From Eledone cirrhosa (taxonomy: Eukaryota), in the NCBI GenBank assembly GCA_964016885.1, contig OZ024740.1, forward strand, positions 372,744,001-372,808,000: a stretch of DNA of 64,000 nt, given 5' to 3'. Position 1 is the stretch's first letter; each line of letters opens with the position of its first letter. Positions 27,046 through 28,436 of this stretch are shown here, piece after piece. The position numbers were made by a program, and so were the translations under genes. The notes under the pieces were generated by a model that saw nothing but the letters and a program-made list of their open reading frames with translations, had not been told where the DNA came from and made no database searches.

Positions 27046-27523
27046 AATAAAACGGTAATGCAAATAACAAAATAGAGTTGGATTTACATAAGTTCTCTTG
27101 CACCATAAATATAATTGGAAAAAACTTTAATATCACAATTTATGATATACCTTAACAGACATAAAGTATGAAAAAATATATATTTTGTATGTATGAATCT
27201 ATGCATCCTTGTAATTATATTCTATCCATCGGCACTTCCAACCCTTTCCTTCTTCTTCTTTCTCTCTCTATATATGTGTTTGGGTGTGGAAATCATGAAT
27301 ATTTGTTTATTTGTGTACACATTTATAATCATGCGCCTGTATATATATATATATATATTAGAATTGGCGCTCTGAAATAGCGATATATATATATTAATGT
27401 ATATATAGTGTATTTTGCAATACACGGTATGCTTAATCAAAAGCATTTCGAAGACCTTATGCTATTGCTTTAGAGTAGTGACAGTCTTACTTACTTTAAA
27501 TTTTCAACAAACAGGGGAGATAA

Positions 27524-27568
27524 AGCTGACAGAGCTATGTTTCATACTGATTGGTACTTATCAAAGCC
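27524..27568 (-). ncRNA. Type I hammerhead ribozyme with U3:A8 core
   Basis: ggct TTGATAA gtac-caatca-gtat GAAA catagctctg TC agct. Confidence 0.8.
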
Positions 27569-27844
27569 AAGTACTCCACCTGTTTGCTGAAAATCATGAA
27601 TGTTTGATTCTTATAGAATTTCTAGTAATAATCAGGAACTGAATATGCAGAGCGGTTGCCGGTCAAGCAAATATTGAAAATTAGAATTGGAGCTCTGAAA
27701 TAGCGATATATATATTAATGTATATATAGTGTATTTTGCAATACACGGTATGCTTAATTAAAAGCATTTCGAAGACCTTATGCTATTGCTTTAGAGTAGT
27801 GAGAGTCTCACTTACTTTAAATTTTCAGCAAACAGGGAAGATAA

Positions 27845-27889
27845 AGCTGACAGAGCTATGTTTCGTACAGATTGGTTCTTATCAAAGCC
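27845..27889 (-). ncRNA. Type I hammerhead ribozyme with U3:A8 core (second monomer)
   Basis: ggct TTGATAA gaac-caatct-gtac GAAA catagctctg TC agct. Confidence 0.78.
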
Positions 27890-27975
27890 AAGTACTCCAC
27901 CTGTTTGCTGAAAATCATGAATGTTTGATTCTTATAGAATTTGTAGTAATAATCTCCCCTGTTTGCTGAAAAGTT

Positions 27976-28436
27976 AAGCTGTGGCACGCCGCCCAGGCTT
28001 TGCTATTCCTCTCAACCACATCATCTTCCGTATTCCCAATTTTTGCTCCCAAATACAGGAAGTCCTCAACCAATTCTAGCGACTTTCCGCCTACATTAGT
28101 GATCCCCTCTGGCTTCTCAACATTCTCTACCAGATATTTTGTTTTAGTCTCATTCATTCTCAGCCCCACACTCATCGACACAGTCTCGACCTCCTGTATC
28201 AAATCCTGTGCCTTCTTCACTGTATTTGTCACCAAAACTATGTCGTCGGCAAATTCAGCATCTGATATCTTTTTCGCCTTAACTCTCCTGCTCTTAGCAG
28301 TAAAGCCAGAGTCCTGGTGTTTCTCCAGTGCAAGGCGCATACAATAGTCCACTACGATGATAAAAAGGTAGGGAGCCAATGTATTTCCCTGGAGCACTCC
28401 AGCCAGTATCTCAAAGAACTGTCATCCACTCAGGTG

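What the first reader, a model, noticed from the sequence alone, without database searches (positions are those of the whole stretch)
27357..27978. Candidate retrozyme: tandem 321-323 bp monomers, one hammerhead each, predicted to release a small circular RNA
Seen: about 1.85 head-to-tail monomers with no ORF and HHRs 321 nt apart on the minus strand. Stem I is extended by an internal loop and a 15-bp helix (ttttcagcaaacagg/cctgtttgctgaaaa). The 3' end sits in (TA)n, and the 5' end carries a 27-nt inverted snippet (27952-27978) taken from just downstream of the HHR. Established: metazoan non-LTR retrozymes are tandem repeats of a few hundred bp with type I HHRs that yield abundant circRNAs. 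Inference: a retrozyme family in an octopod-like genome; the TA target and 5' inversion suggest mobilisation by the neighbouring PLEs.
Basis: partly seen in the sequence, partly recalled or inferred. Interest (0 to 1): 0.88.

Follow-up and report, generated by a model that had tools for sequence, protein, structure and literature searches.

The report
Penelope-inserted retrozyme with swapped hammerhead core
This is one aged copy of a non-coding 320-base repeat, present thousands of times in this animal genome, that carries a predicted self-cutting RNA motif whose core base pair has been swapped in compensating fashion at least twice, and whose copies were likely written into DNA by Penelope-type jumping-gene enzymes, probably from a small RNA circle.

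Summary
Observation confirmed: 1.86 tandem units (321 + 277 nt, 96% alike), no ORF, two type I hammerheads 321 nt apart, (TA)n at the 3' end, 26-nt inverted snippet. The family is large (395 exact core matches; 5,844 for the shared tail). Sister subfamilies, one copy at 35946-36305, keep C3-G8; the pair switches at least twice on a tree and stem II covaries, which points to selection for cleavage. 30 of 46 loci are head-to-head two-armed insertions; 18 of those 30 have one end at unit position 249 and the other 26-35 nt further, the Penelope 'tail' mark. The snippet is best read as a second-arm stump. No copy in 134 loci continues as a pLTR into a coding PLE. Arms read through cleavage sites, so the template was a circle or an uncut multimer. 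Cleavage, transcription and circles are untested, and both hammerheads here carry stem II lesions. Verdict: new member of metazoan non-LTR retrozymes. The scan has noted other such families (310, 422, 467 nt) and U3-A8 cores on other DNA of this genome.

The parts
27357..27954 (-). Main arm of the insertion: 1.86 tandem units of the ~321-nt family A unit, 3' end at unit position 275 (tail end)
27634..27954 (-). Unit 1 (321 nt)
   Evidence: 4.0% from peer majority
27357..27633 (-). Unit 2, partial (positions 1-275, 277 nt)
   Evidence: 2.5% from peer majority
27822..27914 (-). Hammerhead 1 (type I, U3-A8 core at 27885-27879, predicted cut between 27849 and 27848) with 15-bp distal helix; A-A mismatch in stem II
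27501..27593 (-). Hammerhead 2 (U3-A8 core at 27564-27558, predicted cut between 27528 and 27527); G10.1-U11.1 wobble in stem II
27528..27848 (-). Predicted 321-nt monomer between the two cut sites
   Evidence: sequence; circular fold -73.1 kcal/mol; release is untested
27357..27382 (-). 26-nt 'tail' (unit positions 250-275), present at one end of two-armed insertions
   Evidence: Craig et al. 2021 passage
27340..27356 (.). (TA)n target tract
   Evidence: 55 of 64 ends at 249 or 268-292 are followed by TA repeat
27952..27978 (+). Inverted snippet, unit positions 113-138; likely stump of the second arm, joined by 3-nt microhomologies (GAT to the main arm, CTT to the LINE piece)
27979..28440 (-). 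Flank, not part of the element: 460-nt LINE RT fragment (RTE-like by recalled motifs), cut off at both ends, bounded by (TA)40
   Evidence: (Pfam RVT_1 E 3.2e-11)
35946..36305 (+). Copy of sister subfamily B (80% alike) with canonical C3-G8 core and stem II ACAC/GUGU; this copy has G-G-A-A-C in place of G-A-A-A-C

Best explanation
This is one dispersed, aged copy of a non-coding ~320-nt tandem-unit family with a U3-A8 type I hammerhead, likely a non-autonomous retrozyme that Penelope-like (Neptune-type) enzymes insert into (TA)n. Shown: family size, two-armed head-to-head insertions, two fixed 3' ends (249 and about 275), read-through of cleavage sites, compensatory changes in the core and stems. 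Inferred: source loci are transcribed; the hammerhead cuts multimers into 321-nt monomers that a host ligase closes into circles (about 0.55); a PLE endonuclease nicks (TA)n and the RT primes cDNA from both target ends, one arm at the internal UAUAUA tract (249) and one at the tail end (275), running more than once round the template; the arms join in the middle by microhomology. At this locus the second arm survives only as a 26-nt stump, because a deletion or distal priming joined it to a LINE fragment. This copy itself probably cuts poorly and is unlikely to be a source (about 0.2).
For: Family: 39 loci scored of 1943 candidates; 395 exact 29-mer cores, control 0; 1393 relaxed cores; 5844 exact 19-nt tails, control 0. 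Core: U3 in 70 and A8 in 69 of 71 family A hammerheads; over 173 hammerheads in fetched loci 111 U3-A8, 53 C3-G8, 9 unpaired (sample chosen partly by these patterns). Tree of 92 units needs 2 changes of the 3-8 state, forced by starred branches, in 200 of 200 bootstrap trees (5-95%: 2-2). 13-row alignment: 97% of cells paired, 6 of 25 pairs change on both sides, against 30-44% paired in slid controls. Position 7 varies freely in subfamily B. U3-A8 hammerheads are reported active in vitro (PMC3088659, section 8). Insertion marks: 30 of 46 loci two-armed head-to-head; 18 of these 30 pair a 249 end with a 268-292 end, 1 tail+tail, 1 short+short, 10 with an atypical end; 55 of 64 typical ends enter TA repeat. 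This fits the PLE tandem/inverted structure with a 30-40 bp tail at one end (PMC8557442 passages), and a coding Neptune-like family here shows the same two ends, 2969 and 3014. Arms cross up to 6 cut sites; 5' ends lie at the cut site in 2 of 75 arms (3.0 expected) and 3' ends in 1 of 75, so cut linear monomers were not the template. Units of one locus share 18.5-19.8% of variants against 5.6% between loci; 34 of 453 rare variants are shared within a locus against about 12 expected, 15 across opposite arms; the window's two units share 166G and 208C. The circular consensus folds at z -5.5 with the hammerhead fold only 2.3 kcal/mol above the minimum.
Against: No A>G strand bias that would mark an edited RNA stage (84 vs 76, ratio 1.08, p 0.64). 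Most within-locus differences are private, and sharing could also come from a homogeneous master array or gene conversion. The ~17-unit array L127 has units 11% apart with variants shared between non-adjacent units, which a single circle does not explain. No autonomous PLE with a homologous pLTR was found, so the partner is not identified by sequence. Rfam gives no gathering-level hammerhead hit. Both window hammerheads are damaged in stem II (enforced fold costs 4.8 and 3.8 kcal/mol against 2.3 for the consensus). In Xenopus only 1 of 9 tested retrozyme dimers cleaved in vitro (10.64898/2026.07.22.740005).
Confidence: 0.72

Rival explanations
1. Same non-autonomous PLE-mobilised family, but the template is an uncut or partly cut linear multimer transcribed from master tandem arrays. 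A slow hammerhead only releases the RNA from host transcripts, and no circle is needed.
For: Long arrays exist (L127, about 17 units) and are heterogeneous. Arms read through cut sites. Most units within a locus differ privately. PLE hammerheads are reported to cleave weakly (PMC4209133).
Against: Opposite arms of one insertion share rare variants (15 cases in 8 loci; 250A in 6 of 6 units of L125). The core and stems are kept by compensation in every subfamily, which fits efficient cutting of every unit better.
Confidence: 0.17
2. The unit is the pseudo-LTR of a coding Penelope-like element, and the loci are 5'-truncated tandem and inverted pLTR copies.
For: Same insertion marks as coding PLEs. 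Five loci are fused without TA to Neptune-like sequence (L007, L078, L105, L127, L181). Li et al. 2026 found 24 of 57 Xenopus retrozyme families homologous to known TEs, 21 of those 22 TEs being PLEs.
Against: Upstream of a unit lies another unit (up to 6 cut sites crossed; about 17 units in L127). The Neptune fusions fall at five different positions in both partners, and those PLEs have their own unrelated pLTR and hammerhead. Two candidate 4.5-kb spacings were local duplications without a PLE ORF between the copies (L091, L124). 0 of 134 loci show a fixed junction to an endonuclease ORF.
Confidence: 0.07
3. A DNA-level minisatellite or MITE-like hairpin repeat whose hammerhead is a non-functional relic.
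For: No editing signature; L127 looks like a DNA-level satellite.
Against: Fixed 3' ends with ragged 5' ends and TA targeting are retrotransposition marks. Two independent double changes at the tertiary 3-8 pair are hard to obtain without selection on the RNA.
Confidence: 0.04

Closest known systems
Metazoan non-LTR retrozymes (Cervera and de la Pena 2020, PMC7229834; parts 2-4 of 6 read: end of Methods, Results, Discussion)
   Same: 150-450 bp non-coding tandem units, GC below 50% (33% here), one type I hammerhead per unit, palindromic loop 3, no LTR/PBS/PPT seen, self-paired circle in which the hammerhead can fold; PLEs proposed as mobilisers.
   Different: Core U3-A8; copies are mostly short two-armed head-to-head insertions with two fixed 3' ends in (TA)n, which those parts do not describe; circular RNA and cleavage were shown there and are untested here.
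Retrozymes as non-autonomous PLE derivatives (Li, Clavereau, Pollet 2026, 10.64898/2026.07.22.740005; parts 1-3 of 5 read, main text to the start of the back matter; supplements closed)
   Same: Co-occurrence with PLEs; monomers, dimers and multimers; unit about 320 bp.
   Different: There the link is pLTR homology and arrays are thought to grow locally; here no homologous pLTR was found and the link is the insertion footprint. Their descriptors were canonical and minimal type I models; whether these admit U3-A8 is not stated in what I read.
Penelope-like element insertions (Craig et al. 2021, PMC8557442; passages only)
   Same: 5' truncation, partial tandems, inverted 5'-truncated copy, 30-40 bp tail at one end, microsatellite targeting; non-autonomous multicopy head-to-tail Chlamys elements such as MRC1.
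   Different: No ORF; tail 26 nt; no 3' homology to an autonomous family found.
U3-A8 hammerheads (Perreault et al. 2011, PMC3088659, section 8 and passages; Cervera and de la Pena 2014, PMC4209133, parts 1-2 of 4)
   Same: Same compensatory tertiary pair; about 1,300 such motifs in Schistosoma Cercyon PLEs.
   Different: Those PLE motifs are minimal hammerheads, mostly single. Here it is a canonical-size hammerhead (4-bp stem II, 6-nt loop, bulged stem I) in tandem units, with at least two switches inside one repeat superfamily.

Membership tests
Metazoan non-LTR retrozyme | Non-coding tandem unit of 150-450 bp, low GC | tested here: met
   321 nt, 33% GC, longest ATG frame 30 aa
Metazoan non-LTR retrozyme | One type I hammerhead in each unit, at least two consecutive units | tested here: met
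   core is the U3-A8 variant; both window copies have a stem II lesion
Metazoan non-LTR retrozyme | Multi-copy, dispersed, dimers to multimers | tested here: met
Metazoan non-LTR retrozyme | Not the terminal repeat of a coding element | tested here: met
   0 of 134 distinct loci with a fixed junction to an ORF; a sample of several thousand copies
Metazoan non-LTR retrozyme | Self-cleavage in vitro | not testable with these tools
   only folding and covariation
Metazoan non-LTR retrozyme | Expressed as linear and circular monomer RNA | not testable with these tools
   no RNA reads were available to lay
Hammerhead ribozyme type I | Core boxes (3-9, GAAA, UH) with a 3-8 Watson-Crick pair and three stems | tested here: met
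   UUGAUAA / GAAA / GUC; 3-8 pair U-A or C-G in 164 of 173; 97% of cells paired
Hammerhead ribozyme type I | Rfam hammerhead model at gathering score | tested here: not met
   0 hits in the window; HH9 18.2 bits vs 52 on L008; none on sister copy L044. The window's C3-G8 descriptor matches also score nothing, so the models are insensitive here
Penelope-like element (autonomous) | RT plus GIY-YIG ORF between pLTRs | tested here: not met
PLE-mobilised insertion | Tandem/inverted 5'-truncated arms, tail at one end, microsatellite target | tested here: met
   30 of 46 two-armed; 18 of 30 short+tail; 55 of 64 into TA
PLE-mobilised insertion | 3' homology to an autonomous partner | tested here: inconclusive
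   none to the window's PLEs or to two Neptune-like families; other PLE families not surveyed
Viroid-like replicon (symmetric rolling circle) | Ribozymes in both polarities | tested here: not met
   descriptor matches the sense strand only

The most novel reading that the evidence does not exclude
The subfamily series is a natural selection experiment on a ribozyme: the catalytic C3-G8 pair flipped to U3-A8 (or back) at least twice with no lasting unpaired intermediate, because only RNAs that cut and circularise are copied. Neptune-type RT copies these circles from both ends of a (TA)n break and can take its own mRNA as the other arm in the same event: 3 of 3 fully resolved retrozyme-Neptune composites end tail+tail, and the two parts of L007 and L105 have matching ages of 1-2%. 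That would name the mobilising enzyme for an animal retrozyme.
Probability: 0.3. Interest if true: 0.65.

Novelty: new member of a known kind. Interest (0 to 1): 0.42.

Why it matters
How animal retrozymes spread is proposed, not shown, in the papers read. This family gives genomic footprints of PLE-type insertion, and paired natural variants (C3-G8 and U3-A8, three stem II versions) that allow a direct cleavage and retrotransposition test. It also shows that searches with a canonical CUGANGA core would miss over a thousand motifs in this genome. The locus itself is an ordinary aged copy.

Tried and rejected
Rfam at gathering and E-value level: no hammerhead in the window element. RNA evidence: no RNA holder listed (5 runs, none on record as RNA); three runs laid as contigs say nothing on expression; one low-depth contig of organism B covers a unit's hammerhead region, too weak to use. 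A>G editing bias: absent. Enrichment of 5' ends at the cut site: absent. Endless ORF on the 321-nt (107-codon) circle: none. Antisense hammerhead: none. Full-length PLE between two copies: L091 and L124 are local duplications, L092 and L093 are separate insertions, L127 is a tandem array. PLE fragments near L020, L023, L082, L185 are separated from the element by TA or other DNA. Homology to the window's PLE ends or to the Neptune-like pLTRs: none. The first pair count used a misregistered structure string and is void; one search is the corrected one. Rows dropped: overlapping duplicate loci before counts; the tree used 92 of 204 units (22 sampled from 120 at 90% or more identity, and 70 of the 84 below 90% after leaving out the L127 units), and 24 rows had no assignable core label. 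Paper searches 'hammerhead ribozyme'+'octopus' and 'retrozyme'+'cephalopod' listed no paper describing such a family; subscription papers and bioRxiv supplements were not searchable, and the supplement of PMC7229834 was not opened.

Full report
Observation. The region holds a 321-nt unit (27634-27954) followed on the minus strand by positions 1-275 of a second unit (27357-27633), 95.7% alike, ending in (TA)n. There is no ORF over 30 aa from ATG and no open frame round the circle. A type I hammerhead descriptor matches at 27889-27845 and 27568-27524, minus strand only, and 1 of 2000 shuffled units. Stem I continues through an internal loop into a 15-bp helix; the domain folds at z about -5. The snippet 27952-27978 is unit positions 113-138 inverted.

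The core is UUGAUAA: U3-A8 in place of C3-G8. Rfam finds no hammerhead in the window, but a near-consensus copy aligns over the whole Hammerhead_HH9 model below threshold (E 0.029). In family A, U3 stands in 70 and A8 in 69 of 71 hammerheads. A second copy in the window (35946-36305, plus strand, 80% alike) belongs to subfamily B with C3-G8, stem II ACAC/GUGU and a free position 7. A relaxed pattern gives 1393 matches; of the first 100 listed, by my count 95 are U3-A8, 2 C3-G8 and 3 unpaired, and a subfamily with stem II GCAC/GUGC appears. Over 173 hammerheads in fetched loci 164 pair 3 with 8 (the sample was partly chosen by these patterns, so the shares are not genome proportions). On 13 hand-picked rows 97% of cells pair and 6 of 25 pairs change on both sides, against 30-44% paired when slid (related rows inflate such counts). 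A tree of 92 units needs two changes of the 3-8 state: family A, and a separate U3-A8 group nested among C3-G8 units (one labelled row, L085_2822, with two unlabelled relatives that also read TTGATAA); the direction depends on a root that I do not have. U3-A8 is a known natural covariation, reported active in vitro (PMC3088659 section 8) and found in Schistosoma PLE hammerheads (PMC4209133). Inference: source elements were selected for cleavage. The window's own two hammerheads are damaged in stem II (A-A mismatch; G-U at 10.1-11.1), and enforcing the fold costs 4.8 and 3.8 kcal/mol against 2.3 for the consensus.

Genome-wide structure. The genome is 3.0 Gb; the unit has 1943 candidates, 39 scored; 395 exact cores; 248 for subfamily B; 5844 exact tails shared by the superfamily. 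Family A units are 2.9% from consensus on average (39 units). Of 46 family A loci, 30 are two arms head-to-head and 16 single-armed. In 18 of the 30, one arm ends at position about 249 (an internal TA-rich tract) and the other at 268-292; 1 is tail+tail, 1 short+short, 10 have an atypical end; 55 of 64 typical ends run into TA repeat. Craig et al. describe this for PLEs: partial tandems, an inverted 5'-truncated copy, a 30-40 bp tail at one end, microsatellite bias (PMC8557442 passages). A coding PLE family here, with a CX4CxxC linker of the Neptune/Nematis kind (not placed on a tree), shows the same two ends 45 nt apart. The window copy is a tail-ended arm; its snippet is the stump of the opposite arm, joined by GAT and CTT microhomologies.

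Template. In 75 arms, 5' ends are spread over the unit (2 within 100-112, 3.0 expected), 3' ends are not at the cut site (1 of 75), and arms cross up to 6 cut sites. So RT did not copy cut linear monomers; it copied circles or uncut multimers. Units of one locus share 18.5% (same arm) and 19.8% (opposite arms) of their variants against 5.6% between loci; 34 of 453 rare variants are shared within loci against a crude 12 expected, in 19 of 52 loci. L125 is star-like, with one variant in 6 of 6 units on both arms. Against a simple circle: L127, about 17 units, is a mosaic with units 11% apart (16 units compared), and no A>G editing bias is seen. A hammerhead under selection in every unit together with read-through of cut sites is best reconciled by cutting followed by ligation, as shown for coral, mussel and axolotl retrozymes (PMC7229834); for this family it is inference.

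Is it a pLTR? In 134 distinct loci (176 fetched) no copy has a fixed junction to a PLE ORF. Five loci are fused without TA to Neptune-like sequence at five different positions (L007, L078, L105, L127, L181). The three with both outer ends resolved (L007, L078, L181) end tail+tail, and the parts of L007 (2.0% against 1.9% and 0.4%) and L105 (1.5% against 1.6%) have like ages. Deletion between neighbouring insertions in one TA tract explains them (L127 fits this best; 1 in 64 for three tail+tail by chance); co-insertion by one enzyme also does. These PLEs have an unrelated pLTR and their own hammerhead, so the partner is a lead, not identified. The window's PLEs share no sequence with the element. 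The window's 5' flank is a 460-nt LINE RT piece (Pfam RVT_1; 'RTE-like' is my recall of motifs), cut at both ends and bounded by (TA)40, with neither missing part nearby; it is 2.6% from its peers, like the element, so here too deletion and co-insertion are both open.

Comparison and novelty. It works like, and meets every testable feature of, a metazoan non-LTR retrozyme; cleavage and circular RNA are not testable here. Li et al. 2026 argue such elements are non-autonomous PLE derivatives, and found cleavage in 1 of 9 dimers. Two paper searches found no description of such a family in cephalopods. The scan has noted other two-armed retrozyme families (310, 422, 467 nt) and U3-A8 PLE hammerheads on other DNA of this genome, but not this family; these notes are unchecked, and I had the two-armed and U3-A8 readings before looking. 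Verdict: real, a new member of a known kind; the distinctive points are the repeated compensated core switch and the Neptune composites. Interest 0.42.

Noticed in passing
window 9114-9171(-), 12448-12510(-), 12623-12685(+), 12848-12894(-), 18128-18166(+), 37608-37661(+), 60796-60848(-), 61316-61362(-): Eight further hammerhead-like motifs with canonical C3-G8 cores, mostly with a long stem II and little stem III, as in PLE minimal hammerheads; 12510/12623 form an inverted pair. Rfam scores none of them.
   Followed up: no
window 38470-40720(-) and about 6400-8200(-): Two decayed coding PLE copies (RT, and for the first a GIY-YIG-like 3' part), unrelated in sequence to the retrozyme; no Pfam hit for the two pieces tested.
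   Followed up: partly
L129-L139; window 27979-28440: The LINE RT family flanking the element is shared among copies over only about 1.2 kb, with a common 5' boundary in 8 of the 10 copies compared with L129: possibly a fixed-length non-autonomous RTE-like derivative with about 2,000 candidates.
   Followed up: partly
L127 (G000:C1:82390457-82395956): About 17-unit single-orientation array of a U3-A8 subfamily, units 11% apart with variants shared between non-adjacent units (4/13, 5/14, 6/15, 7/11, 3/10), fused to a Neptune-like 3' end; a possible source-type or satellite-type locus.
   Followed up: partly
L007, L078, L181, L105: Retrozyme arms fused without TA to coding Neptune-like PLE sequence through short inverted snippets; the three resolved composites end tail+tail.
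   Followed up: partly
unit position 97 (loop 3): T/G polymorphism: G makes stem III a perfect 12-nt palindrome (duplex -20.1 kcal/mol against -7.3 for the T form that the window carries), which should change dimer-hammerhead efficiency.
   Followed up: partly
L037:2081-3321: A 31-nt piece of the subfamily B unit (positions 206-239) is amplified into a minisatellite of at least 40 copies.
   Followed up: no
L091, L124, L190: Local duplications that include a family copy: direct at 4.46 kb and 4.52 kb spacing, inverted in L190.
   Followed up: partly
window 28517-28560 and 28670-28710; 26934-27043 and 29042-29172: A short inverted repeat pair beyond the (TA)40, and two copies of another common repeat on either side of the locus.
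   Followed up: no
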